Source: a virus
Lineage: Duplodnaviria > Heunggongvirae > Uroviricota > Caudoviricetes
Virus record (IMG/VR): IMGVR_UViG_2778260996_000018
Reading direction: 5' to 3' (one strand)
Length of the DNA stretch: 13,235 bases
Shown in pieces: positions 199-12,213 of this stretch; positions within the stretch are counted from its first letter, which is position 1; every line of letters begins with the position of its first letter. A model generated the notes under the pieces. The model saw nothing but the letters and a program-made list of their open reading frames with translations. It did not search any database and was not told where the DNA came from. The position numbers were made by a program, and so were the translations under genes.

Positions 199-1917
199 AT
201 GATTTTTAGGGATAGCTTGAGAGTATTACCTTATGGTCGAGTAGATAATGATTTCTTCCAGATAGAAGAAAGACGTTCATGGAATGCAGGGCGATATTAT
301 TGGTCTAATAGAAGGATTTTTGGTTATATTGGAATTACTCAATCCAGTAATAAAGAGCTGAAAGATAAGTCGGGGAGAGAGGGATTCATAAGAAACCAGG
401 CTGCAAGAGAACTGAAAACTATTATATCTAATTTGTTAACTGAACTTGCTGATAGATTTTTTGGTTCACGTTCTGATGACCGTAAAGAGCTTTTAGAACA
501 AGTTAAGCGTGAAAAAGAGTTAAGAAAATCTGCTCAACAACAAGCTCGAAAATCAACACAAAAAAGTTTTTCAGAAGCTTTGAAGAATCAGACACCAGTT
601 CTTGATGCTTCCTTGGAGGCTGTTAAAAGGCTGAAAACTAAGCTTGATAAAACTGATGGTTCGTTAGATTTAAACTATCTTAAAATTATAGACAGTGATC
701 TTACAAACTTAGATGCGTTGCGCAGTGAAATTAAAACGCCTATCAAACCTCCAAAACTTGGAATGTATGAAGAGAAATATAGAGACTACAGAGATAAATT
801 TAATGAGTTCTCTGCGTATATTCTACAAATGAAGTTAGCAATTAATAAACTTGATTCTGAATTAAATAAACTTGAGCCTTCATTGTCAGCGAAAAATCAC
901 CTTGAAAAAAATCAAGGTATTATTAATTCTAAACTAACTAAGTTTAATAACACGATAGAGGAGAAGATACATTCTCTTTTAAAAAAATGGGCCGATGAAA
1001 TAAAGGTTGATCGAAGTGATTATTATGCTAAAACTATATCAGTTGTTGATTCAATAGATAATGATTCACAAATTGAAAATGTGTTTAATTTGCTCGATAG
1101 TTTATATGTTGAGTCAGTTGATACCCTAACTTTCAAATATCAATCAATAATAAAAGGTCTCGATAGATTATTTGAAGGTATAAACTTAGATTCAGCATTC
1201 TCATTATCTGAAGAAGAACGCTCATATTTTGAAGAAAAAGCTAAAAGTTTAAACGCGCTTGCACAGTTAGGTATTAGTGTTGAGATAATATCTCATGAAC
1301 TTGAAGAAATGGATTCTATGGTAACCAGAGGACTAAACTCTCTTCCTACTTCTGTAAAAGAACACCCTGGTTTTTCATTGGCGTTAAATGCTCACAGATC
1401 GCTTACTCAACAAATACGTTTCTTATCACCTTTGAAAATATCAGGTTATCAATCCAGGCAGAGAATAACTGGAAAAAATATCATGGATTATGTCCTGAAG
1501 TTCTTTGGGGAGCGTTTCGAACGGCAACGAATAACTATTGAATTTAGTGAAGAGTTTAAGCAAATCGCAATAACAGATATACCATCAAGGATCTATCCTG
1601 TTTTTACTAATATTATCAACAATGCAATGTATTGGGTCAGTCTGTCAAATAATAGGCTCATAAAGATTGGTTTTGTGAATTCTTTGGTTATCATAGCAAA
1701 TTCTGGTCCGGCAATTGATACCGATGATATCCCGCGACTATTTGAACTATTTTATAGCAAAAGAGCAAATGGACATGGGGTAGGTCTGTATCTATGTCGA
1801 GAAAACCTTGCTGTTGCACATCATAAAATATGGTATTCAGAACCTGATGAAGGCGATAACTATTTAATAAAAGATGACGCTAATTTTGTGATCCAGTTCA
1901 ATGGAGTGGAGTTCTAA
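199..1917 (+). CDS. Cytoplasmic sensor histidine-kinase-like protein (unknown N-terminal region, long coiled coil, C-terminal HisKA + HATPase_c)
   Basis: 572-aa ORF. Motifs read from the translation in canonical order: H-box-like ISHELEEMDS, N-box FTNIINNAMYW, G1 IANSGPAID, F-box-like FELFYS, G2 GHGVGLYL. Central ~250 aa is K/E/L-rich (coiled-coil-like); no hydrophobic TM segment. AGGA lies 4 nt upstream of ATG 199. The frame is open without a start codon from 73 to 198, so a 5' truncation cannot be excluded. Confidence 0.75.
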   Translation: MIFRDSLRVLPYGRVDNDFFQIEERRSWNAGRYYWSNRRIFGYIGITQSSNKELKDKSGREGFIRNQAARELKTIISNLLTELADRFFGSRSDDRKELLEQVKREKELRKSAQQQARKSTQKSFSEALKNQTPVLDASLEAVKRLKTKLDKTDGSLDLNYLKIIDSDLTNLDALRSEIKTPIKPPKLGMYEEKYRDYRDKFNEFSAYILQMKLAINKLDSELNKLEPSLSAKNHLEKNQGIINSKLTKFNNTIEEKIHSLLKKWADEIKVDRSDYYAKTISVVDSIDNDSQIENVFNLLDSLYVESVDTLTFKYQSIIKGLDRLFEGINLDSAFSLSEEERSYFEEKAKSLNALAQLGISVEIISHELEEMDSMVTRGLNSLPTSVKEHPGFSLALNAHRSLTQQIRFLSPLKISGYQSRQRITGKNIMDYVLKFFGERFERQRITIEFSEEFKQIAITDIPSRIYPVFTNIINNAMYWVSLSNNRLIKIGFVNSLVIIANSGPAIDTDDIPRLFELFYSKRANGHGVGLYLCRENLAVAHHKIWYSEPDEGDNYLIKDDANFVIQFNGVEF

Positions 1918-3667
1918 TATGACAGTGGCAAATTATAATTCTCTTGTCCAGAAAACTTTCTGCGAAAATGCAATTCGTTCCGTTGTCATGATTGATGACG
2001 ATTTTCTGACGTATTCTGAATCAATCAGGGCGTTGAATAACGAAGTTGATTTAGACTACAACAAAATTGACTCATCTAAACGAGCCGCTACTCTTGAGAG
2101 CTTTTTTCAATCTAAAAATATGATTTGTGATGTTGACAATGGTTCTGTTAATTTCGATGTGGATCGGATTAGAAAATCAGATCTTATTATTGTAGATTAT
2201 CATCTTGATAATAATGCACCTGATAAAACACTTAAACTATTACAAGATTTGAAAGACTCCGATCATTTAAATATGATTGTAATATATACTAGAGAGAATT
2301 TAGAAACGGTTTGGATGCAGATATCATCGACTCTCAAAGGTGCTCTGGATATCAACAGCTTGATCATTGACTACGATAATGAAGATGTCCAAAGTTATTG
2401 GGAAGACGTTGTATTACCGAACTTAAATGATAATGGTAATAAAGCTCTCACAAGAGATGAAACAATAGCCTATATTAAAGACAGTAAGCCTTGTAGAAGA
2501 ATTAAAAGATTAATACATGATGATGCTGTGTTGGAGGAACAAAAGGATAAAAACTTCATTGCAAAAATGATTGCAGAATATGCTGTGTCTAGAAATGCAA
2601 TTATTTCTAGCAACACATCTGGCAATGTCATTCGGGGTGATGAAAGCGGAGTAAAATGGATTCAATGTGGTAATATCTTTGTCTCCCTATTTCATAAGGT
2701 TCAAGATGATCATGAAAACGATGGAGATAGGATTTGGCAAACTCTCAATGATTCTCTCATTGAATGGAAACCATCTTATTATCAGTTAATAAAATCTGAA
2801 ATTCAGAATGCAATCGAAGCTGAGGCTTTATCTTTTGTAAATCATTTGGCTAACGATCATTACGGTCAAGCTGCGTGGTTAAATGAGATATTAAAATCAG
2901 ACTCGCCTGATATTAGATGTAGAAATATTGACTTTGTATTTGGTAATTTATCAGAAGAGCTTTATCAAAGACTTAAAAATAATAATACGCTGGATGAATT
3001 TATCAAAAGTGTTTTTGATAGCTATTCAAATGAATACGCTAACAGCGGAGTTGCTGCATTGCTCCAATATTGCTCTTCAAAAATGGATCTGCCATCAAAT
3101 AATGATACTTATCACGAAATGTATCATGCTTTAAATATGAATTTGTCTTCAAAGAATTTTGAAGATGGTCATATTTCTACTGGCACTATTTTCTTTGATA
3201 CAGAGTCGAACAAATGGTATTTATGTGTATCTGCGGCATGTGATTTGGTTCCTACTCAGGGTAACGACCCTCACCATGTAAGATTAAGTCCGCACAGGCT
3301 CATTAAAGTTCTGGAGCTTTTTAACGCCAGTCAGAGTAAAGCATTGCCATTTGCTGAACATTCGAAATATATATATGTAATGCATAAAAATCAAAGAAAA
3401 TATCTCTCTATTTTCGAAGGGGATAAAACGCTTCCTGTTGTTGATTATATGGTGGTGTTGAATCATGGAACAACAGTTGATGGCGAAGAAAAAAATATTA
3501 TTTCTGCCGTGTTTTTAAGTAATATGGATGGCAACGTGCAAAATGTTCCTGTCCGACTCAAACTTAAATCTCAACTGAGAACTGGTTATGCAGAAAGATA
3601 TCAGGCTATAGCGTCTCAGTATAGCTCAAGGATTGGTGTGGATTATGTATCAATGATGCTACCATAA
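1901..3667 (+). CDS. Receiver (REC) domain protein fused to a ~430-aa uncharacterised C-terminal output domain
   Basis: 588-aa ORF. N-terminal receiver signature in order: VVMIDDD (acidic pocket), DLIIVDYHLDNN (phospho-acceptor Asp), NMIVIYTRE (conserved Thr). No HTH or other motif recognisable in the C-terminal part. Overlaps the kinase gene by 17 nt; the alternative start ATG 1919 sits just after the kinase stop and is preceded by GGAGTGGAG, so it may be the true start. Confidence 0.7.
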   Translation: MEWSSNMTVANYNSLVQKTFCENAIRSVVMIDDDFLTYSESIRALNNEVDLDYNKIDSSKRAATLESFFQSKNMICDVDNGSVNFDVDRIRKSDLIIVDYHLDNNAPDKTLKLLQDLKDSDHLNMIVIYTRENLETVWMQISSTLKGALDINSLIIDYDNEDVQSYWEDVVLPNLNDNGNKALTRDETIAYIKDSKPCRRIKRLIHDDAVLEEQKDKNFIAKMIAEYAVSRNAIISSNTSGNVIRGDESGVKWIQCGNIFVSLFHKVQDDHENDGDRIWQTLNDSLIEWKPSYYQLIKSEIQNAIEAEALSFVNHLANDHYGQAAWLNEILKSDSPDIRCRNIDFVFGNLSEELYQRLKNNNTLDEFIKSVFDSYSNEYANSGVAALLQYCSSKMDLPSNNDTYHEMYHALNMNLSSKNFEDGHISTGTIFFDTESNKWYLCVSAACDLVPTQGNDPHHVRLSPHRLIKVLELFNASQSKALPFAEHSKYIYVMHKNQRKYLSIFEGDKTLPVVDYMVVLNHGTTVDGEEKNIISAVFLSNMDGNVQNVPVRLKLKSQLRTGYAERYQAIASQYSSRIGVDYVSMMLP

Positions 3668-4193: not shown

Positions 4194-5465
4194 TTAGGCT
4201 ACCAGAGCATTTGATCTTTGAGCTTGAACGTAATCACTCCACCATTGCATCAAACTCTGTCGCTCTATCAGATATTCTGCACGATTGTATGCTGCGATAA
4301 TTTCATCTTTTTTCGAGTGGGCAAGCGCTGCCTCAAGAACTTCAGCTCTGAATTTACCAGACTCCTCTGCCGCTGTTCGTGCAATAGAACGCATACCGTG
4401 AGCTACAAGCTCGCCTCCGAACCCCATTCGGATGATAGCTGCGTTGGCTGTTTGTTCATGCATATGATTAAGAGGCGCTTTTATGCTGGGGAAAACCCAT
4501 TCTCTATGCCCACTTATTGATTTCATTAATTCAAGGATGCGCAAAGCTTCTTTACTCAAAGGAACTTTGTGAAGCTTTTTCATTTTCATGAAATCAGCAG
4601 GAATGTTCCAAATGCTGTTGGTTGTATCAATATCAGACCACCTTGCGCGAACGGCTTCACCCGGACGAACCCATGTCAACAATTGCCATTCAATTAGCAT
4701 ACGTGTTTCCAACCGGATTGACGCATTCGTCAAAGATTCCATAAACCTTGGCAATTCGCTTGGGGGAAGGGCAGGCATATTTTGCTTTTTTGGTTTACTG
4801 AATCTTTGACCAAGGTTGTCAGCCGGGTTGAACTCAATAAGTTCTTCAGTAGCTGCCCACCGGAAGATTTCATTCAGACGTGAAATGATACGGCGTAGAG
4901 TTTCCAATACGCCTCGTTGCTCAATAGGATCAAGGTGTTGTTTTAAGAGCTTAGGTCGGATCTCATTGATAGGGACATTACCCAGACCGGGAAAGACATT
5001 TCTCTCTAAGCTGCGCCAGATGTCTGCTGCATGGTCTTGTGAGATACCTGATGTCTTTACCTTCTCATCTAACCATTTCCGCGCTACGGCTTGGAGAGTG
5101 TGCTCAGTAGCACTCTTTAATGCCTTCGCCTTATCGTTGTTATGGATTTGGGGATCAACACCATTTGCCAGAAAGGAGAGATATTCATCACGTAAGGCTC
5201 TGGCTCTTGCAAGGGTAAGGTGAGGATATGTCCCAAGGCTCATTTTGGTTCTTTTCTTGCTCACTGGTACTGCATACCTGAAATACCAATTTTTCTTGCC
5301 TCCTTTCGCCAAAGGAGCGATTCGTAGAATCAGACCATCACCGTCAAACAAGTTGATTTCTTTATCGGCTGGCTTGGTGCTTTTGATTTCAGTGTCAGTG
5401 AGCTTCTTAGCGATTTTTGCCATTTTGGGACCCTCGGTTTTTGGACCCTTCTTAGTGGGTCCCAT
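4194..5465 (-). CDS. int: P4-type tyrosine site-specific integrase
   Basis: 423-aa ORF. N-terminal arm-binding-type motif (LTDTEIKS..KP..KEINLFDGDGLILRI..GKKNWYFRY) typical of P4-family integrases; C-terminal catalytic region with VAHGMRSIARTAAE (H-x-x-R) and the terminal tyrosine region IIAAYNRAEYLIERQ. The more likely start is the internal ATG at 5423 (MAKIAKKLTDTEIK), which has a GAGGG Shine-Dalgarno; the first ATG at 5465 has none. The start points at the ssrA remnant, as with intA next to ssrA in E. coli K-12. Confidence 0.9.
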   Translation of the reverse strand: MGPTKKGPKTEGPKMAKIAKKLTDTEIKSTKPADKEINLFDGDGLILRIAPLAKGGKKNWYFRYAVPVSKKRTKMSLGTYPHLTLARARALRDEYLSFLANGVDPQIHNNDKAKALKSATEHTLQAVARKWLDEKVKTSGISQDHAADIWRSLERNVFPGLGNVPINEIRPKLLKQHLDPIEQRGVLETLRRIISRLNEIFRWAATEELIEFNPADNLGQRFSKPKKQNMPALPPSELPRFMESLTNASIRLETRMLIEWQLLTWVRPGEAVRARWSDIDTTNSIWNIPADFMKMKKLHKVPLSKEALRILELMKSISGHREWVFPSIKAPLNHMHEQTANAAIIRMGFGGELVAHGMRSIARTAAEESGKFRAEVLEAALAHSKKDEIIAAYNRAEYLIERQSLMQWWSDYVQAQRSNALVA

Positions 5466-7120: not shown

Positions 7121-8299
7121 TCACTTCTTCATTCCAGATTCCATTGCGGTTTTCCCGTCGTATTCAGCCAGGTATTTACCGTAATTGCGGAACAGCATTT
7201 CCGGCCCCTTATGCCCCATCTGCCCGGCAAGCCAGAAAAGGTTTACACCCTGGCTAATGTGTCTGGTGGCGAATGTGTGGCGCGTCTGGTACGGGTTACG
7301 GTAGCGCACACCAGCTTTTTTCAGGGTCGGCACCCATGCTTTTTTACGGATAGCGTCGGCGTTCGTCCAGGGATCTCCCGTTTTCGGATCGCTGAATATG
7401 AACTCACTTTTCATAAAGGTGTATTGCTTCTGCGCCTGCAGGGCCGCCAGCGCCTCACTGTTCAGCTCCACCTTACGGGTACCGGCTTTTGTCTTGGTGC
7501 CTTTAAGTACCCCTACGACACTGGCCGCCTGTATGTGCGCTGTATTACCTATAAAGTCGATATCGGTCCAACGTAATGCGCATAGCTCAGAGCTGCGTAG
7601 CCCTGTATTGAAGGCGAAGCGGAACAGATTCTGCCATTCCTGATACTTGCAGTGCTGATATATGGCACTGGTTTCCGCAGGCGCAAACGGATCAACTTCG
7701 TAATCGTCGGCGTTCGGTTTACTGTCGACCACGTGATACCGGCTGGCGCTGACAAGAGTTACCGGGTTAATAGTCAACAGGCCATCAGTTACAGCCTCAT
7801 CAATGGCGCTGCGCAGAAATGACAGGTTATTCCTGATTGTTTTCAGCTTAGTTTTTCGGCTGGCTATCCAATTTTTTAGTACCGCAGGCGTCAATTCTGT
7901 TACATGTAGTTTATGTAGTTCTGATAGTGCTGATAGACATTTTTCGTAACCGCCAATGGTTGACGGCGACAGATTGCGGTTCATGCAAATTTTCAGGTAT
8001 TCATCAAGATAGGACTTAATATTTTTGGTTTTCTTTACTACACCGAATAACTCCAGTTTTTTGGAACTGGGGAAATATTTCGCATATTCAAACGTTCCGC
8101 TGGCGATCTGATTTTGTATCTCCCCTAGCAGGCGCTCAGCATATTTAATACCACGTGTATTTGCCTCAAGCCGAGACAGGGGCTCCCTGCAAAGAACCCC
8201 TTTATATGTGAAAGTGATAACTAGTGTTGAAGCAGTTTTATGCTTACGAATAGTTACTCCTCTTGGCAGAGATAATAATCCTTGTTCTTTCTTGCCCAT
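7121..8299 (-). CDS. int: Lambda-type (phage) tyrosine integrase
   Basis: 392-aa ORF. Catalytic signature near the C-terminus: PYQTRHTFATRHISQGVNLFWLAGQMGHKGPEMLFRNYGKYL (R, H-x-x-R, H, Y). AGAGG Shine-Dalgarno upstream. Its 3' end faces the att remnant, as in lambda where int is transcribed toward attP. Confidence 0.9.
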   Translation of the reverse strand: MGKKEQGLLSLPRGVTIRKHKTASTLVITFTYKGVLCREPLSRLEANTRGIKYAERLLGEIQNQIASGTFEYAKYFPSSKKLELFGVVKKTKNIKSYLDEYLKICMNRNLSPSTIGGYEKCLSALSELHKLHVTELTPAVLKNWIASRKTKLKTIRNNLSFLRSAIDEAVTDGLLTINPVTLVSASRYHVVDSKPNADDYEVDPFAPAETSAIYQHCKYQEWQNLFRFAFNTGLRSSELCALRWTDIDFIGNTAHIQAASVVGVLKGTKTKAGTRKVELNSEALAALQAQKQYTFMKSEFIFSDPKTGDPWTNADAIRKKAWVPTLKKAGVRYRNPYQTRHTFATRHISQGVNLFWLAGQMGHKGPEMLFRNYGKYLAEYDGKTAMESGMKK

Positions 8300-8463
8300 T
8301 TTGAAACCTCTATTAAGTCGACCCAGCGTTCTTTAACTCCGTCGACTTTTAATACATGAACCCCTTCTTTCCATATTCCTCTTTGTATCCGTTTGTTAAC
8401 GGCATCAACCGTTTCTCCCGCGTCGCGGCAGTAGGTTGATATAGGCACGCAATCCAGCCCCAT
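8254..8463 (-). CDS. xis: Probable excisionase / small DNA-binding recombination directionality factor
   Basis: 69-aa ORF directly upstream of int and overlapping it by 46 nt (xis-int arrangement of lambdoid phages). Small basic protein; GAGGTGA Shine-Dalgarno. Assignment is by position and size, not by a recognised motif. Confidence 0.6.
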   Translation of the reverse strand: MGLDCVPISTYCRDAGETVDAVNKRIQRGIWKEGVHVLKVDGVKERWVDLIEVSKWARKNKDYYLCQEE

Positions 8464-8987: not shown

Positions 8988-9556
8988 TCATTCCGGATGC
9001 TCCTGAGCCACATTGAAATCGCCATGATCACGACAAGGCATCACAACAAATTCAGGATTGCCATACATTGAGTTGATGATGGAATCAAACTGAATTCTGA
9101 CCGCTTGCCCGTCACCGGAGGAACGTAACTGGACGGGAATAAATTTACGCTCACGACCAAACATCTTCTCTGGATAACTCAGGTAACCCGCCTGGATCAC
9201 CGGGTGTGTACAGAGGTCAAATTTTTTCGGAATGATGCGTTCCAAATCCGGAAAACAACCGTCCACCAATTTAATGCCGGTAATGGACAGCCGGCGCTGA
9301 AACTGGTCGCGATGAACAGGATCGGCTCTTTACTAAAAATCAGCTCTGTCGTTTCGGCTTTGGCCGGGACGCCACCTTCGAACTGGACAATGATGTTTTT
9401 CTTCGTCCGGATGCCGTGAGTCATGCGCAGTGCTACGAAACCATTGGTTGCCTCAATATGTTTTGGCGTGATGTGAAGACCGTTCAGGTAATAACGAACG
9501 TCGTTTTTAGCAGCGCACACCAGAGCGGCGCGAATAAGTTTTGACTGGATGATCAT
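8988..9556 (-). pseudogene. Sliding-clamp (DnaN, DNA polymerase III beta) domain II-III-like gene, split between two reading frames
   Basis: The N-part (ORF 9197-9556) contains DVRYYLNG, an exact 8-mer shared with E. coli DnaN as I recall it. The C-part (ORF 8988-9269 frame) contains KLVDGCFPD (DnaN: KLVDGRFPD) and EFVVMPCR (DnaN: AYVVMPMR) in the right order. The two halves are in different frames, separated by about 56-59 nt near 9287-9345 with in-frame stops. Confidence 0.5.
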
Positions 9557-10302
9557 GCTTTATCCTCCCATCCGATTACCTGAAAAAGCCCCATCTTCGG
9601 GTGATACCAGCGTGTGCCGCGTGGTTCAGCCTCTGACATCATTTGGTGGAACGCCGCCATAAATGTCTCAAGCTCGACGACAGCCCTGCGAGACAACAGA
9701 CCGTCCGGAGTCATAAATTCGTGCGTGTCGGTAGGGATGTGGTAGGCGTTGACCAGATTCCGACACTTGGCGTCACTCATTCCGCTTTTGGCTACCACCT
9801 GGCGGTAACCGACATATCCGGTGCGCATTGTGCCGCGTTTGATGTTCTCCACAGCTTTGGTGACCGTTTCGATCTTCTCTTCAACATGACTCAGGCGCTT
9901 CTGCTGGCGAACGGCATCGGCGGCCATTGCAGCGATCATCTCCATTTCCGTCAGCGGCGCGTGAGTTCGGAAATAGCTGTTAACCAGTTCGCGCTGAACC
10001 TGCCATGCAAGAGCATCGTTAAAAGGCTTCGTCAACATCAGGTAACCAGACTCGAAAAGAATGATCCCTTTGGCAGTTCGCGCGGCAAAGGCATCAGAAA
10101 GTGACTCCGTACGTATTACGTCCGCAGTCATTTCAAGAAAATCCACCCCTTCGATAAAGTGAGAACGGTTGCGGTTAAACGCAGCACGGGCGGTACCTTC
10201 CGGGCGCTGGTGGACGTCATCAATTATTGCAAATGTCACAACACGCTGACCGCGATATTCGATTACCGGAAACTGTTTGTTGTTGATGGTTACAATATTC
10301 AT
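9553..10302 (-). CDS. ORF6N-domain phage antirepressor-like protein
   Basis: N-terminus MNIVTINNKQFPVIEYRGQRVVTFAIIDDVHQRPEGTARAAFNRNRSHFIEGVDF resembles the ORF6N/antirepressor N-terminal domain. Start chosen at ATG 10302 (GGAG 6 nt upstream) rather than the ORF-track ATG at 10377, which would overlap the upstream gene. The stop overlaps the start of the clamp-like gene (ATGA). Confidence 0.6.
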   Translation of the reverse strand: MNIVTINNKQFPVIEYRGQRVVTFAIIDDVHQRPEGTARAAFNRNRSHFIEGVDFLEMTADVIRTESLSDAFAARTAKGIILFESGYLMLTKPFNDALAWQVQRELVNSYFRTHAPLTEMEMIAAMAADAVRQQKRLSHVEEKIETVTKAVENIKRGTMRTGYVGYRQVVAKSGMSDAKCRNLVNAYHIPTDTHEFMTPDGLLSRRAVVELETFMAAFHQMMSEAEPRGTRWYHPKMGLFQVIGWEDKA

Positions 10303-10345: not shown

Positions 10346-11173
10346 TTACTTAACCTGAATAAATGGTGTGTTGGCACCGCTGGTCATGTATTGCGGCAGT
10401 GTACCGTTCCACTTGTTGATGGCTTCCAGCTCCATAACACCGGGGTTCTGGCGCAGAGCTTCACCGCGTAAACGAATAGCATCGGCTTCGGCCTGGGCTT
10501 TTGTGCGAATCGCATCTGCCTGTCCGGCAGCTTCCGCGCGCAACATGTTGGCTTCCGCTTCGCGCTGTTTTACTTCCTGCTCGCGTTGCAGGGTTTTCTG
10601 GTTCGCCGTGACTTTGGCATTAATGCTGTCGATAACAGTAGGTGGGTACTCCGGCTTACCCACATATGAGAGGCTCATTACCTGAATACCGATGGGCGTC
10701 ATTTCTTCCTGAATGTCTTTAAGAGCTGCATCCAGCAGCTCAGACTTGCCGCCGTCGATAAATTTGTCGGTGGTCATTTTGCTGGCCAGTCGGTTGAGTG
10801 CGTCGGCTATCTTCTGGCGCAGGTCGGTGTCGGTAATGTCGTCCACGCCTTTGCGGTAGGTCTGAAAGACTGTGGTAACTTTGGATGGATCAACTTTGTA
10901 GGCCACGCCGATGTGATAGCCGATGGTTGTACCGTCACTCATCTGGAAACTGAATGGATCATCGTAGGTCTTCATCTGCTTAAAGGTCGGGAAGATGTAA
11001 ACCTCAGTGTTCCATCCCGTCCAGTAGCGCCCAACACCGACCACTTCACCGACGCCTTTATCGTCGCCCAGTTTGTTTACTTTGATGCCCACATTACCAG
11101 GCTCAACGCGATCGCAACCGACAAGGCCAATGGTCGGCAGAACAAGGGCTAAAGCAAAAAGTAATTTTTTCAT
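10346..11173 (-). CDS. SPFH/Band-7 (prohibitin/HflK-like) domain lipoprotein
   Basis: 275-aa ORF. Signal peptide with lipobox (MKKLLFALALVLPTIGLVGC), SPFH-like core, and a C-terminal A/E/Q/R-rich coiled coil (QREQEVKQREAEANMLRAEAAGQADAIR...) as in HflK/HflC-type proteins. Confidence 0.8.
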   Translation of the reverse strand: MKKLLFALALVLPTIGLVGCDRVEPGNVGIKVNKLGDDKGVGEVVGVGRYWTGWNTEVYIFPTFKQMKTYDDPFSFQMSDGTTIGYHIGVAYKVDPSKVTTVFQTYRKGVDDITDTDLRQKIADALNRLASKMTTDKFIDGGKSELLDAALKDIQEEMTPIGIQVMSLSYVGKPEYPPTVIDSINAKVTANQKTLQREQEVKQREAEANMLRAEAAGQADAIRTKAQAEADAIRLRGEALRQNPGVMELEAINKWNGTLPQYMTSGANTPFIQVK

Positions 11174-11358
11174 CTTTTATCCTTAGAAAAAGAAAGACCC
11201 TTATAAATGGCATAAATGCAGGGCGGGGTCAGACACGCCAGAGCAAAGCCAGAAATCACTGCTACCGTATCCTTCATTGATATGAGGGCCGGAACGATTA
11301 ATCCGTAAATACATGTGATAATTGCCAGTGATATAACTATTCTGAAATAAATGTTCAT
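11170..11358 (-). CDS. Small two-TM membrane protein, translationally coupled to the SPFH lipoprotein gene
   Basis: 62-aa ORF with two hydrophobic helices (IVISLAIITCIYGLIVPALI, VAVISGFALACLTPPCIYAIY). Strong AGGAGG Shine-Dalgarno 4 nt upstream; ATGA stop/start overlap with the SPFH gene. Confidence 0.6.
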   Translation of the reverse strand: MNIYFRIVISLAIITCIYGLIVPALISMKDTVAVISGFALACLTPPCIYAIYKGLSFSKDKR

Positions 11359-11418
11359 GGTCCTCCTGATGTATTCGGCTTGCCTTATTTAATTGCGTCA
11401 TGGTTAATTTCGTTTACG

Positions 11419-11811
11419 TCAGAATGGTTTTGTTGCCATCAGTTCGTAATATCCGGCGCTCCATGTGTCATATTTTCTGAACCATTTTTCTGTATACTGT
11501 TTCCTGGCGATGAGTCTGCGCAGTCGTCTGATTGTTCGCTGGTGTGCGCGGGTATACTCTGTGGTTGATTCTCCACGTTTCCATATCTCATTCCTGTTGA
11601 AGATAAAACGCTTGTCAGGATAGCGTTGTCGGAATCCTGAACGTTCAAAAGCGCGGGTGGTCATAAAGAATGCCAGGTAACGAATTGCCGTTTTTCGGGT
11701 GAGGCATTTTTTTGTTCTTCCGTGGCGTGTTACAAAAAATAACGGGCCGACGGGTGTATCATGTTTCTGTAATGCCTGGTCAATGGTGCTGGCGGTGCGG
11801 TTGTCGATCAT
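11419..11811 (-). CDS. Hypothetical basic protein
   Basis: 130-aa ORF, Arg/Lys-rich; ATGA overlap with the upstream 72-aa ORF. No family recognised. Confidence 0.5.
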   Translation of the reverse strand: MIDNRTASTIDQALQKHDTPVGPLFFVTRHGRTKKCLTRKTAIRYLAFFMTTRAFERSGFRQRYPDKRFIFNRNEIWKRGESTTEYTRAHQRTIRRLRRLIARKQYTEKWFRKYDTWSAGYYELMATKPF

Positions 11812-12026
11812 TTCTTTATTTCTCCCGAATAACGTTCATGACTCATTACTTCCCAGTTCCGGCCGTCGTCTTTCGATAACAGCCGCCAGCGACGGTTAAC
11901 CTTCAGACTGAGATATCCGGTGCGCTGTATCCGATGCGGAAATATCCGTCGGCATCGGTACAACAACAGGACCTGCAATGCCTGCCGGTGGATCCGCTCA
12001 GGAATGCGTGTTGCTGTTAATGCCAC
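11808..12026 (-). CDS. Hypothetical small basic protein
   Basis: 72-aa ORF, Arg-rich, overlapping the upstream ORF by 29 nt. Coding status uncertain. Confidence 0.35.
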   Translation of the reverse strand: MALTATRIPERIHRQALQVLLLYRCRRIFPHRIQRTGYLSLKVNRRWRLLSKDDGRNWEVMSHERYSGEIKK

Positions 12027-12213
12027 CGGTTTCCTCCTGAGCAGGTGCTGTTATCTGATACCCCGCTCTTTCTGCCAGCCGTATGAATGTATCCATGCTG
12101 GCAATCAGCTCGCCATCGCGGACTTTGCAGACACCTGTGACTTGGCCATTTTCAATTGTCATAACGATCTGCACTTTTTCGTGCACAACAGATACAGGGG
12201 ATAAATTAGCCAT
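11998..12213 (-). CDS. Hypothetical small protein
   Basis: 71-aa ORF; its start overlaps the stop of the upstream 119-aa ORF by one nucleotide. Confidence 0.4.
   Translation of the reverse strand: MANLSPVSVVHEKVQIVMTIENGQVTGVCKVRDGELIASMDTFIRLAERAGYQITAPAQEETGGINSNTHS

What the first reader, a model, noticed from the sequence alone, without database searches (positions are those of the whole stretch)
10346..11358. SPFH/Band-7 lipoprotein with a coupled 62-aa two-TM partner in the prophage accessory operon
SPFH proteins normally pair with an NfeD-type membrane partner; here the partner is a minimal 62-aa two-helix protein with a strong Shine-Dalgarno and an ATGA overlap. A prophage-borne envelope module in the early-left accessory region is a plausible superinfection-exclusion or membrane-defence determinant rather than a housekeeping complex.
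Basis: partly seen in the sequence, partly recalled or inferred. Interest (0 to 1): 0.45.

Follow-up and report, generated by a model that had tools for sequence, protein, structure and literature searches.

The report
Phage P1-type Upl–Plp membrane gene pair
The two genes are real: a tiny two-helix membrane protein coupled to a lipid-anchored SPFH scaffold protein, the same pair as the uncharacterised upl–plp genes of phage P1, carried by many temperate and lytic phages and still without a known function.

Summary
On the minus strand, a 62-aa two-TM ORF (11170-11358) overlaps by ATGA a 275-aa lipoprotein (10346-11173). The lipoprotein carries an SPFH/Band_7 domain (Pfam E=8e-31).

The pair is not new. 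The lipoprotein is 92% identical to phage P1 Plp. The small protein is in the same PHROG (phrog_1130) as P1 Upl.

The pairing holds across unrelated phage groups: lambdoid, P2-like, P1-like, SSU5-like, N4-like and rV5-like. A partner homologue lay directly upstream of the SPFH gene in 80/80 and 70/80 IMG/VR loci and nowhere else. The small ORF is under purifying selection (pN/pS 0.235).

- **Not NfeD:** the partner has no NfeD domain.
- **Not housekeeping:** about 10% of complete E. coli genomes carry it, in prophages or P1-like plasmids.
- **Not a known defence system:** PADLOC gives no hit.
- **Probably not lysogen-expressed:** no own promoter or terminator was found, it lies in early lytic operons, and strictly virulent phages carry it.

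Best reading: an HflK/C-like SPFH ring on the periplasmic face of the inner membrane, with the hairpin as its membrane partner. Superinfection exclusion is plausible but untested. P1 upl and plp are dispensable for plating.

The parts
11170..11358 (-). Gene for a 62-aa two-TM hairpin membrane protein of the Upl family (phrog_1130). Predicted topology is N-in/C-in.
   Evidence: ORF and translation. phrog_1130 match at E=1.5e-23. Purifying selection (pN/pS 0.235) and intact in 79/79 loci. Homologues of the same PHROG in P1, P88, SSU5, KpCHEMY26 and GAP31.
11263..11292 (-). Codons 23-32 (PALISMKDTV). This is the turn between the two helices, predicted to face the periplasm, and it is the best conserved motif of the partner family.
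   Evidence: In the alignments, Pro23 is the only invariant column, and the motif (V/L)P-x-(L/M)(I/V)S-x-(K/D/S)(D/S)(T/S) is shared. The topology is inferred from the charge distribution.
11362..11367 (-). Shine-Dalgarno sequence AGGAGG for the small ORF, with a 3-nt spacer.
   Evidence: Read directly from the sequence.
11170..11173 (-). ATGA stop/start overlap that couples translation of the two genes.
   Evidence: Sequence. The same 4-nt overlap occurs in 65/80 (window-seeded), 27/29 (Maja-seeded) and 61/70 (GAP31-seeded) of the IMG/VR loci in which a partner was detected.
11180..11185 (-). Shine-Dalgarno sequence TAAGGA for the SPFH gene, inside the 3' end of the small ORF, with a 6-nt spacer.
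   Evidence: Read directly from the sequence.
10346..11173 (-). Gene for the 275-aa SPFH/Band-7 lipoprotein, orthologue of P1 Plp (phrog_200).
   Evidence: Pfam Band_7 E=8e-31. phrog_200 E=1e-114. 92% identity to P1 Plp. pN/pS 0.036.
11114..11173 (-). Signal peptide and lipobox (LVG-C20). It is followed by Asp21 at the +2 position, the inner-membrane retention signal.
   Evidence: Translation. Cys invariant, and Asp (Glu in GAP31) at +2 in the 7-phage alignment. The Lol-avoidance rule is established knowledge and was not tested here.
10550..11110 (-). SPFH (Band_7) domain, residues 22-208.
   Evidence: Pfam. AF2 model with a confident core over residues 64-175. Foldseek hits to Erlin, HflK/C, prohibitin and stomatin.
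10448..10642 (-). Long alanine- and glutamate-rich helix, residues 178-242. It corresponds to the coiled-coil wall region of SPFH cages.
   Evidence: AF2 secondary structure shows helix 178-242 with pLDDT 74-90. It aligns to HflK residues 102-228.
10349..10414 (-). Conserved C-terminal tail, residues 254-275 (KWNGTLPQYM...PF...K).
   Evidence: Invariant K254, W255, N256, G257, P260, Y262, M263, P270 and F271. The last 11 residues differ between the two partner types.

Best explanation
The locus is a self-contained, translationally coupled two-gene membrane module, the counterpart of upl-plp of phage P1.

Gene 1 makes a 62-aa helical hairpin in the inner membrane. Both ends face the cytoplasm, and only a short conserved turn (P-x-L-I-S-x-K-D-T) faces the periplasm.

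Gene 2 makes a lipoprotein that is exported, lipidated at Cys20 and, because of Asp at +2, kept in the outer leaflet of the inner membrane. Its periplasmic body is an SPFH domain, a roughly 65-residue helix and a conserved tail. This is the architecture that in HflK/C, prohibitin, erlin and stomatin assembles into a ring or cage sitting on a membrane patch.

The most likely working model is a homo-oligomeric Plp ring on the periplasmic face of the inner membrane. The ring would enclose or be organised by the Upl hairpins, which take the place held by NfeD in cellular SPFH operons (or by FtsH in the HflK/C cage). The module is made early in lytic development, in temperate and virulent phages alike. 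I infer that it conditions the inner membrane of the infected cell. The favoured role is blocking entry of a second phage's DNA, or otherwise protecting the membrane, in the manner of early-expressed exclusion proteins.

Shown here: gene structure, domain identity, conserved pairing, purifying selection, phage-only distribution, and absence of an NfeD domain.

Inferred: inner-membrane location, ring formation, contact through the periplasmic turn, early expression, and the biological role.
For: - Gene structure and coupling.
- SPFH domain. HflK is the closest solved relative by sequence (E=2e-4).
- Fold: the AF2 model shows an SPFH core plus a long helix. Its best structural matches are cage-forming SPFH proteins, namely Erlin1/2, HflK/C, prohibitin and stomatin, at E about 1e-8.
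- Lipobox Cys is invariant and Asp is at +2 in 6 of 7 diverse phages.
- Orthology to P1 Plp/Upl and membership of phrog_200/phrog_1130.
- Same gene order in phiP27, Stx2 phages, Fraca, Klebsiella prophages, P88, P1, SSU5, N4-like KpCHEMY26 and rV5-like GAP31/KE22.
- Census: a partner HMM hit lay directly upstream of the SPFH gene in 80/80 and 70/80 IMG/VR loci. In a Burkholderia set it was 29/30, but that seed included Burkholderia sequences. There were no hits elsewhere among 7006 ORF segments.
- Purifying selection acts on both genes.
- Early-operon position: no own promoter or terminator was detected. The cassette lies in the pL-type operon. In P88 it lies between cox and the replication gene. 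In KpCHEMY26 and GAP31 it lies among RNA polymerase and nucleotide-metabolism genes.
- Accessory nature: P1 plp and upl were scored non-essential by CRISPRi (PMC10695390), and about 10% of complete E. coli genomes carry it.
Against: - No experiment links this family to any phenotype. The paper library held only genome descriptions that call its role unclear.
- PADLOC has no model matching either protein.
- The partner does not match Pfam's superinfection-immunity family or any other family convincingly.
- The AF2 model is only moderate (mean pLDDT 65.7). The N-terminal SPFH1 part, residues 13-63, is below pLDDT 50.
- Oligomerisation and the Plp-Upl contact could not be modelled with the available tools.
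- The +2 residue is not Asp in some lineages: Glu in GAP31, Ser in DL54, Gly in Kuttervirus and CcrRogue. Inner-membrane retention may therefore not be universal.
- A Pasteurella prophage SPFH protein was reported in outer-membrane vesicles (PMC9872710). Its relationship to this family was not tested here.
- Some phage SPFH lipoproteins have no two-TM partner: phiEa21-4 and PhiSH19.
- The promoter scan is a simple consensus scan and cannot exclude a weak or non-sigma70 promoter.
Confidence: 0.5

Rival explanations
1. HflK/C mimic acting on FtsH. The periplasmic SPFH ring would capture or shield the host FtsH protease. This would change turnover of phage regulators (CII/CIII-type) or of host membrane proteins, and so bias the lysis-lysogeny decision or stabilise phage proteins.
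For: HflK is the closest solved relative by sequence and among the best by fold. NCBIfam gives only weak HflC/HflK similarity. The predicted periplasmic orientation matches HflK/C. The cassette lies in the leftward early operon, where lambda carries the FtsH inhibitor cIII (from memory). Several genome papers suggest this role (PMC4936722; PMC8540360).
Against: The pair is carried by obligately virulent N4-like and rV5-like phages, which make no lysogeny decision. HflC/HflK equivalog scores are 25 and 23 bits against cut-offs of 134 and 159. There is a single SPFH gene rather than a K/C heteropair. The conserved partner is a dedicated phage hairpin, which argues that the client is phage-encoded rather than FtsH.
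Confidence: 0.15
2. Caged holin-like hairpin. Upl would be a membrane-permeabilising or depolarising two-TM protein, with the architecture of a class II holin or pinholin. The Plp ring would hold it inactive or time its release, serving lysis timing or an abortive or exclusion response to a second infection.
For: The partner is 62-78 aa with two TM helices, N-in/C-in topology and a basic C-terminus (the annotators of KpCHEMY26 say the same). That is the class II holin layout (from memory). One of 9 homologues gives a weak Pfam holin hit at E=0.058. In Staphylococcus Kayvirus the analogous mbpV-mbpS pair lies between lysK and tgl, and MbpV is said to resemble holins (PMC7150955; locus).
Against: In lambdoid, P2-like, N4-like and rV5-like phages the pair is in early regions, far from lysis genes. 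There is no significant homology to any holin family. MbpV belongs to a different PHROG and has a single TM helix. Knock-down of P1 upl or plp gives no plating defect.
Confidence: 0.12
3. Lysogenic-conversion surface or immunomodulatory lipoprotein. The lipoprotein would be made by the lysogen and act on the animal host, for example as a TLR2 agonist released in vesicles. It would then be a virulence factor rather than a phage-phage function.
For: A prophage-encoded SPFH HflK/C-like protein of Pasteurella multocida (PM0222) was reported in OMVs, activating TLR1/2, and described as a virulence factor (PMC9872710). The cassette is frequent in Stx2-converting phages and in clinical E. coli and Klebsiella prophages.
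Against: No own promoter or terminator was detected. The same pair occurs in virulent environmental phages. Asp at +2 predicts inner-membrane retention rather than surface exposure. This role does not explain the strictly conserved inner-membrane partner.
Confidence: 0.05
4. Ordinary cellular SPFH-NfeD housekeeping operon, or a serine protease as many GenBank records label it.
For: SPFH genes are commonly paired with a membrane partner gene (NfeD). phiP27, Stx2 and Klebsiella phage records call the protein 'serine protease'.
Against: It is present in only 535 of 5426 complete E. coli genomes, and the contexts examined were all phage or phage-plasmid. The partner has no NfeD domain. The 275-aa protein has no protease domain. 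Its only Pfam hit is Band_7, and the sole 'protease' PHROG hit is weak (E=9e-4) and lies over the coiled-coil region.
Confidence: 0.01

Closest known systems
Phage P1 upl-plp (P1_gp073/gp072; PHROGs phrog_1130 and phrog_200)
   Same: Same two families in the same order and orientation. Plp is 92% identical over the full length. Upl and the window's small protein both match phrog_1130 (E=6e-16 and 1.5e-23). Both small proteins are two-TM with a basic C-terminus.
   Different: The small proteins are only about 23% identical. P1 Upl is 78 aa and overlaps plp by 20 nt instead of 4. The signal peptide and the last 11 residues of the lipoprotein also differ, and in the loci examined they track the partner type. 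P1 carries the pair on a plasmid prophage next to tciA-C and ban, not in a pL-type operon. No function is known for the P1 pair either.
Cellular SPFH-NfeD operons (for example E. coli QmcA-YbbJ, a cage of 26 heterodimers; Tan et al. 2024 as cited in PMC13086221)
   Same: An SPFH scaffold gene is coupled to a gene for a small membrane protein, and the likely logic is a ring or cage with a membrane-embedded partner.
   Different: The partner has no NfeD OB-fold domain and no ClpP-type domain. The SPFH protein is lipid-anchored and periplasmic, not TM-anchored and cytoplasmic as QmcA is. The module is phage-borne and accessory.
E. coli HflK/HflC-FtsH complex
   Same: Closest solved relative by sequence and fold. 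The SPFH body faces the periplasm above the inner membrane. There is a historical link to phage biology through lambda CII turnover.
   Different: There is one SPFH gene rather than a K/C pair. It has a lipid anchor instead of an N-terminal TM helix. Equivalog scores are far below the cut-offs. The dedicated partner is a 62-aa hairpin, not a protease.
Staphylococcus Kayvirus mbpV-mbpS (PMC7150955)
   Same: A phage-encoded SPFH protein is immediately preceded by a small membrane protein gene, with a start/stop overlap.
   Different: MbpS is TM-anchored rather than a lipoprotein and is only about 25% identical. MbpV has one TM helix, is 102 aa and belongs to a different PHROG. The pair lies in the lysis-gene region.
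Early-expressed phage superinfection-exclusion membrane proteins (T4 Imm and Sp; from memory, not tested)
   Same: Small inner-membrane or periplasm-facing proteins, made early by the infecting phage and dispensable for growth. This is the functional analogy favoured here.
   Different: No sequence similarity was detected, including no Pfam hit to the superinfection-immunity family at E<=10. Those systems have no SPFH component. The function of the present pair is untested.

Membership tests
SPFH / Band 7 superfamily | Band_7 domain (PF01145) above the curated threshold | tested here: met
   E=8e-31, 107.9 bits against a cut-off of 23.6, covering profile positions 2-176 of 176.
SPFH / Band 7 superfamily | SPFH alpha/beta core followed by a long coiled-coil helix | tested here: met
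   AF2 gives strands at 64-94 and 163-175, helices at 110-161 and a helix at 178-242. Foldseek top hits are Erlin1/2, HflK/C, prohibitin and stomatin at E about 1e-8. The N-terminal part of the model is low-confidence.
SPFH / Band 7 superfamily | Assembly into a large ring or cage on a membrane | not testable with these tools
   Only monomer prediction is available. This needs AF-Multimer/AF3, BN-PAGE or cryo-EM.
Bacterial lipoprotein retained in the inner membrane | Signal peptide with lipobox [LVI][ASTVI][GAS]C | tested here: met
   The N-terminus is MKKLLFALALVLPTIGLVG-C20. The Cys is invariant across 7 phage lineages.
Bacterial lipoprotein retained in the inner membrane | Asp at position +2 (Lol-avoidance signal in E. 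coli; established rule) | tested here: met
   C20 is followed by D21. Asp is conserved in 6 of 7 aligned phages and in the Burkholderia set. Actual localisation was not tested.
SPFH-NfeD operon | The partner carries the NfeD C-terminal OB-fold domain (PF01957), with or without a ClpP-type domain | tested here: not met
   No NfeD hit for the window protein, nor for any of 9 partner homologues at E<=10. At 62 aa with two TM helices there is no room for the domain.
SPFH-NfeD operon | A co-directional, adjacent membrane-protein gene coupled to the SPFH gene | tested here: met
   ATGA overlap. The adjacency is conserved across loci.
HflK/HflC | Score above the NCBIfam equivalog cut-offs, and two paralogous SPFH genes | tested here: not met
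   25.4 and 23.4 bits against cut-offs of 134.4 and 159.4. The cassette has a single SPFH gene.
Phage P1 Upl/Plp pair (phrog_1130 + phrog_200) | Both proteins match the respective PHROG, and the small gene lies directly upstream of the lipoprotein gene | tested here: met
   phrog_200 E=1e-114 and phrog_1130 E=1.5e-23. P1, P88, SSU5, KpCHEMY26 and GAP31 partners all match phrog_1130. Gene order.
Known anti-phage defence systems (PADLOC-DB 2.0) | Match to any defence-system protein model | tested here: not met
   No hit at E<=1 for either protein or for the two flanking genes.
Class II holin / pinholin | Small protein with two TM helices, N-in/C-in topology and a charged C-terminus | tested here: met
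   Hydropathy and charge distribution. This is an architectural resemblance only.
Class II holin / pinholin | Homology to a holin family and a position in a lysis cassette | tested here: not met
   Only 1 of 9 homologues gives a weak Phage_holin_10 hit, E=0.058. The gene lies in the early-left operon next to anti-repressor-like and other early genes.
Superinfection-exclusion determinant | Reduces infection by a second phage at adsorption or DNA entry | not testable with these tools
   This requires expression in a naive host with plating, adsorption and DNA-entry assays.

The most novel reading that the evidence does not exclude
Upl-Plp would be a previously unrecognised class of phage membrane device. 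It would consist of a minimal, NfeD-independent SPFH cage on the periplasmic face of the inner membrane, with a dedicated client in the form of a 62-aa hairpin. Phages of at least six unrelated lineages would deploy it early in infection, either to close the inner membrane to incoming DNA of competing phages or to neutralise membrane-targeting host abortive-infection effectors. If so, it would also be the simplest known SPFH cage-client pair, and a tractable model for what SPFH cages do.
Probability: 0.25. Interest if true: 0.7.

Novelty: new member of a known kind. Interest (0 to 1): 0.42.

Why it matters
SPFH proteins occur in all domains of life, yet what their membrane cages do remains unclear in most cases. 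Phage-encoded SPFH proteins are noticed repeatedly in genome papers and left unexplained.

This analysis shows that one large group of them, found in enterobacterial lambdoid, P2-like, P1-like, SSU5-like, N4-like and rV5-like phages, always travels with a specific 60-80-aa two-helix partner. It also shows that the P1 genes upl and plp are the prototype.

That yields a compact two-gene system that can be tested directly for phage exclusion, membrane protection, FtsH modulation or lysis control, and that is suitable for structural work.

For this particular window the practical result is modest. The pair is an ordinary member of a widespread but uncharacterised phage gene pair. The 'serine protease' label attached to it in many database records is unsupported.

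Tried and rejected
- **PADLOC:** scans of both proteins and their neighbours found nothing.
- **NfeD:** no hit by Pfam for the window partner or for 9 partner homologues at E<=10.
- **NCBIfam:** only sub-threshold HflK/HflC similarity.
- **Literature:** eight searches found no functional study of phage SPFH lipoproteins. One search was badly designed and returned only general defence papers. The 2004 P1 genome paper is not held.
- **Reverse census:** seeding search for related loci with the partner alignment failed because the alignment has no sufficiently conserved stretch.
- **Burkholderia loci:** my first automatic parse failed because GC-rich sequence gives long spurious ORFs. I redid it by anchoring on the lipobox motif. 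The partner HMM was seeded with two Burkholderia sequences, so its hits there are partly circular. PHROGs places those partners in different families, phrog_32105 and phrog_34880. I therefore treat them as positional and architectural analogues whose homology is unproven.
- **Structure:** the AF2 model was limited by a shallow alignment of 22 sequences at 76% identity or more, because only proteins from the homology search may be submitted. The N-terminal 63 residues are unreliable. No complex or oligomer prediction was possible.
- **'Superinfection exclusion protein' next to the SPFH gene of Kuttervirus PhiSH19:** it is a soluble acidic protein, and that lineage lacks the two-TM partner. It gives no support to the exclusion hypothesis.
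- **Own-promoter moron hypothesis:** no sigma70-like promoter or intrinsic terminator was found on the coding strand around the cassette.
Full report

On the minus strand, ORF 11170-11358 encodes 62 aa (MNIYFRIVISLAIITCIYGLIVPALISMKDTVAVISGFALACLTPPCIYAIYKGLSFSKDKR). ORF 10346-11173 encodes 275 aa. The plus strand reads tcat at 11170-11173. On the coding strand this is ATGA, so the stop of the first gene overlaps the start of the second.

AGGAGG lies 3 nt upstream of the first ATG, which is a short spacer. TAAGGA lies 6 nt upstream of the second ATG.

The larger protein has a full-length Band_7/SPFH domain (Pfam E=8e-31, residues 22-208). Its N-terminus has the form of a lipoprotein signal peptide, with lipobox LVG-C20 followed by Asp21.

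The small protein has two hydrophobic segments. One positive charge precedes the first, a neutral SMKDT turn separates them, and a basic tail follows the second. By the positive-inside rule this gives N-in/C-in topology.

The small ORF is a real gene. In related IMG/VR loci it was intact in 79 of 79 testable cases. Its pN/pS is 0.235 in the annotated frame, against 1.4-1.75 in four of the other five frames and 0.54 in one antisense frame. The SPFH gene has pN/pS 0.036.

**2. What surrounds it?**

The window carries a tyrosine integrase (7121-8299), a likely excisionase (8254-8463), a DUF4222 gene and an ORF6N/anti-repressor-like gene (9553-10302). The two genes of interest follow, and then a run of tightly packed small genes. 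All are on the minus strand.

The same right-hand gene series occurs in the E. coli VR50 prophage, where it continues to HTH regulators and replication genes.

A consensus scan found no sigma70-type promoter and no intrinsic terminator on the coding strand around the cassette. It does not look like a moron with its own signals.

**3. Identity.**

The lipoprotein matches phrog_200 ('lipoprotein', E=1e-114). The small protein matches phrog_1130 ('membrane protein', E=1.5e-23).

DNA and protein searches of GenBank phages found the SPFH gene in these groups:
- phiP27, Stx2-converting phages, Klebsiella prophages and phage Fraca;
- P2-like P88 and P1-like phages;
- more distantly, 780 phage records in all. 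These include N4-like, rV5-like, Bruynoghevirus, Ounavirinae, Kayvirus, Caulobacter, crAss-like and haloarchaeal viruses.

The P1 protein is Plp. It is 92% identical, and the mature parts are almost the same.

The ORF just upstream of P1 plp is the 78-aa two-TM protein Upl. Upl also matches phrog_1130 (E=6e-16). So do the small proteins upstream of the SPFH gene in P88, SSU5, N4-like KpCHEMY26 and rV5-like GAP31 (loci).

An alignment shows a gapless core with an invariant proline. The shared motif, (V/L)P-x-(L/M)(I/V)S-x-(K/D/S)(D/S)(T/S), sits at the predicted periplasmic turn.

The window therefore holds the upl-plp pair of phage P1. A genome-wide CRISPRi study scored both P1 genes as non-essential and listed plp only as 'putative lipoprotein' (PMC10695390).

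**4. How tight is the pairing?**

I built an HMM of the partner and one of the SPFH protein, then scanned every forward-strand ORF segment of the fetched loci (7006 segments).

| Locus set | Partner hit directly upstream of SPFH gene | Overlap |
|---|---|---|
| Window-seeded IMG/VR (L011-L090) | 80/80 | 65 with 4 nt, 15 with 20 nt |
| GAP31-seeded (L128-L207) | 70/80 | 61 with 4 nt |
| Burkholderia, Maja-seeded (L097-L127) | 29/30 | 27 with 4 nt |

In the GAP31-seeded set, nine of the ten misses carry a 64-aa two-TM ORF with the same 4-nt overlap that is too divergent for the HMM. No hit occurred anywhere else.

One caveat applies. The HMM seed contained two Burkholderia sequences, and PHROGs files those partners in other families. 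I count them as positional analogues only.

The pairing is not universal among phage SPFH proteins:
- phiEa21-4 and Kuttervirus PhiSH19 have no two-TM gene upstream.
- DL54 and Staphylococcus Kayvirus have a different, single-TM small protein.
- CcrRogue has a larger multi-TM one.

**5. Mosaic structure.**

Nucleotide similarity between the window and P1 or P88 covers only query positions 35-775. That is the mature SPFH body.

The signal peptide plus partner on one side, and the last 11 codons on the other, are replaced. In 79 IMG/VR loci the partner type tracks the C-terminal tail variant perfectly: GANTPFIQ(V/I)K with the window type and N(T/A)AVPFVPVK with the Upl type. This rests on only two or three independent lineages. 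It may reflect linkage rather than function, so I record it as an observation.

**6. What kind of SPFH protein is it?**

By sequence, the nearest solved structure is E. coli HflK, and the match is weak (E=2e-4). NCBIfam HflC/HflK equivalog scores are far below their cut-offs.

An AlphaFold2 model from a shallow alignment has mean pLDDT 65.7. It is confident over residues 64-245 and shows the SPFH core and one long helix at 178-242. Its best Foldseek matches are subunits of the Erlin1/2, HflK/C, prohibitin and stomatin cages (E about 1e-8).

The lipid anchor and Asp at +2 predict an inner-membrane lipoprotein with its whole body in the periplasm. This follows the established Lol-avoidance rule and was not tested here. 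The orientation is that of HflK/C. It is opposite to the cytoplasmic QmcA-YbbJ cage (Tan et al. 2024, as cited in PMC13086221).

**7. Is the partner NfeD-like?**

No. Neither the window protein nor any of nine homologues matches Pfam NfeD, even at E<=10. A 62-aa hairpin cannot hold the NfeD OB-fold. It works like an NfeD only in the loose sense of being the operon-encoded membrane partner of an SPFH protein.

**8. Housekeeping or phage-borne?**

- Only 535 of 5426 complete E. coli genomes have a match, and 218 have the full-length pair.
- Of 193 plasmid records with a match, 188 are non-mobilizable. The listed examples of these are about 87-102 kb and show the P1-type match pattern.
- Every chromosomal or phage context I inspected was a prophage or a phage.

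**9. What does it do?**

Nothing in the paper library tests this. Genome papers call the role unclear or guess at several functions:
- phage adsorption or DNA entry (PMC13239085);
- HflK/C-like control of lysogeny (PMC4936722; PMC8540360);
- help with Sec-dependent export (PMC7150955).

One Pasteurella prophage SPFH protein was described as a TLR1/2-activating virulence factor in vesicles (PMC9872710). PADLOC has no matching model.

The comparative data constrain the options in four ways:
- The pair is a mobile, self-contained unit, found with different neighbours in six unrelated phage groups.
- It lies in early regions. These are the pL-type operon here, the stretch between cox and the replication gene in P88, and regions among RNA polymerase and nucleotide-metabolism genes in N4-like and rV5-like phages.
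- Obligately virulent phages carry it, so it is not primarily a lysogen-expressed conversion function and is not tied to the lysogeny decision.
- It is dispensable for plating in P1.

My best reading is a periplasm-facing SPFH ring on the inner membrane that encloses or is organised by the hairpins. The most conserved part of the hairpin is the one stretch that a periplasmic protein could touch.

The role I favour is early conditioning of the infected cell's inner membrane, with exclusion of a second phage's DNA as the leading candidate. This is by analogy with early-expressed exclusion proteins such as T4 Imm and Sp (from memory). It is inference, not demonstration.

The rivals are an HflK/C-like action on FtsH, a caged holin-like hairpin, and a host-directed lipoprotein. 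Their evidence is listed separately.

**10. Verdict.**

It is wrong to treat the pairing as unusual or prophage-specific, and it is unproven on function. The pair is another member of a widespread, catalogued but uncharacterised phage gene pair (P1 upl-plp).

The added value here is threefold:
- the pairing is shown to be conserved across phage lineages;
- the model system is identified;
- the 'serine protease' annotation is shown to be unfounded. Band_7 is the only domain, and the one 'protease' PHROG hit is weak and lies on the coiled-coil.

Noticed in passing
window 199-3667 (+): Two overlapping large genes. One encodes 572 aa with HATPase_c and HEF_HK domains. The other encodes 588 aa with a Response_reg_2 domain (PF19192). 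This is an atypical histidine-kinase/receiver-like pair with no PADLOC match. It lies on an island next to a second integrase.
   Followed up: partly
window 4194-5465 (-) and 7121-8299 (-): Two different tyrosine integrases lie within 3 kb. One is P4-type (Arm-DNA-bind_3, Phage_int_M) and the other is lambda-type (Arm-DNA-bind_2). This suggests an integrative island and the prophage inserted in tandem. No tRNA gene is present in the window.
   Followed up: partly
window 11808-12026 (-) and 11998-12213 (-): A 72-aa protein with a ParE-like toxin domain (PF24732, E=3e-17) is preceded by an overlapping 71-aa gene (phrog_340). This may be a toxin-antitoxin pair in the same early-left operon, two genes upstream of the Upl-Plp cassette.
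   Followed up: partly
window 8988-9556 (-): The 119-aa ORF 9197-9556 matches only the first 72 positions of a 190-position PHROG (phrog_3007), and a second ORF (8988-9269) overlaps its end. This may be a frameshifted or truncated gene.
   Followed up: no
window 10346-11173 versus L002 (P1) and L003 (P88): Mosaic breakpoints lie inside the SPFH gene. The mature body is 86-91% identical at the DNA level to P1 and P88. The signal peptide plus partner gene, and the last 11 codons, are replaced. The tail variant tracks the partner type in 79 of 79 loci.
   Followed up: partly
GenBank records AJ298298, LC5678xx, MK416019 and others: The SPFH lipoprotein is widely annotated as 'serine protease', and in some Bruynoghevirus records as 'transposase fusion protein' (PMC8540360). 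No protease domain is detectable. This is probably an inherited annotation error.
   Followed up: yes
L008 2667-2831 and L093 1032-1196: In rV5-like phages (GAP31, KE22) a conserved 54-aa soluble, charged protein is inserted between the two-TM partner gene and the SPFH gene. This makes a three-gene version of the cassette.
   Followed up: no
L208 (Salmonella phage PhiSH19) 641-1958: The Kuttervirus SPFH lipoprotein has Gly at +2 and no two-TM partner. The upstream gene labelled 'superinfection exclusion protein' is a soluble acidic 106-aa protein separated from it by a 205-nt gap.
   Followed up: partly
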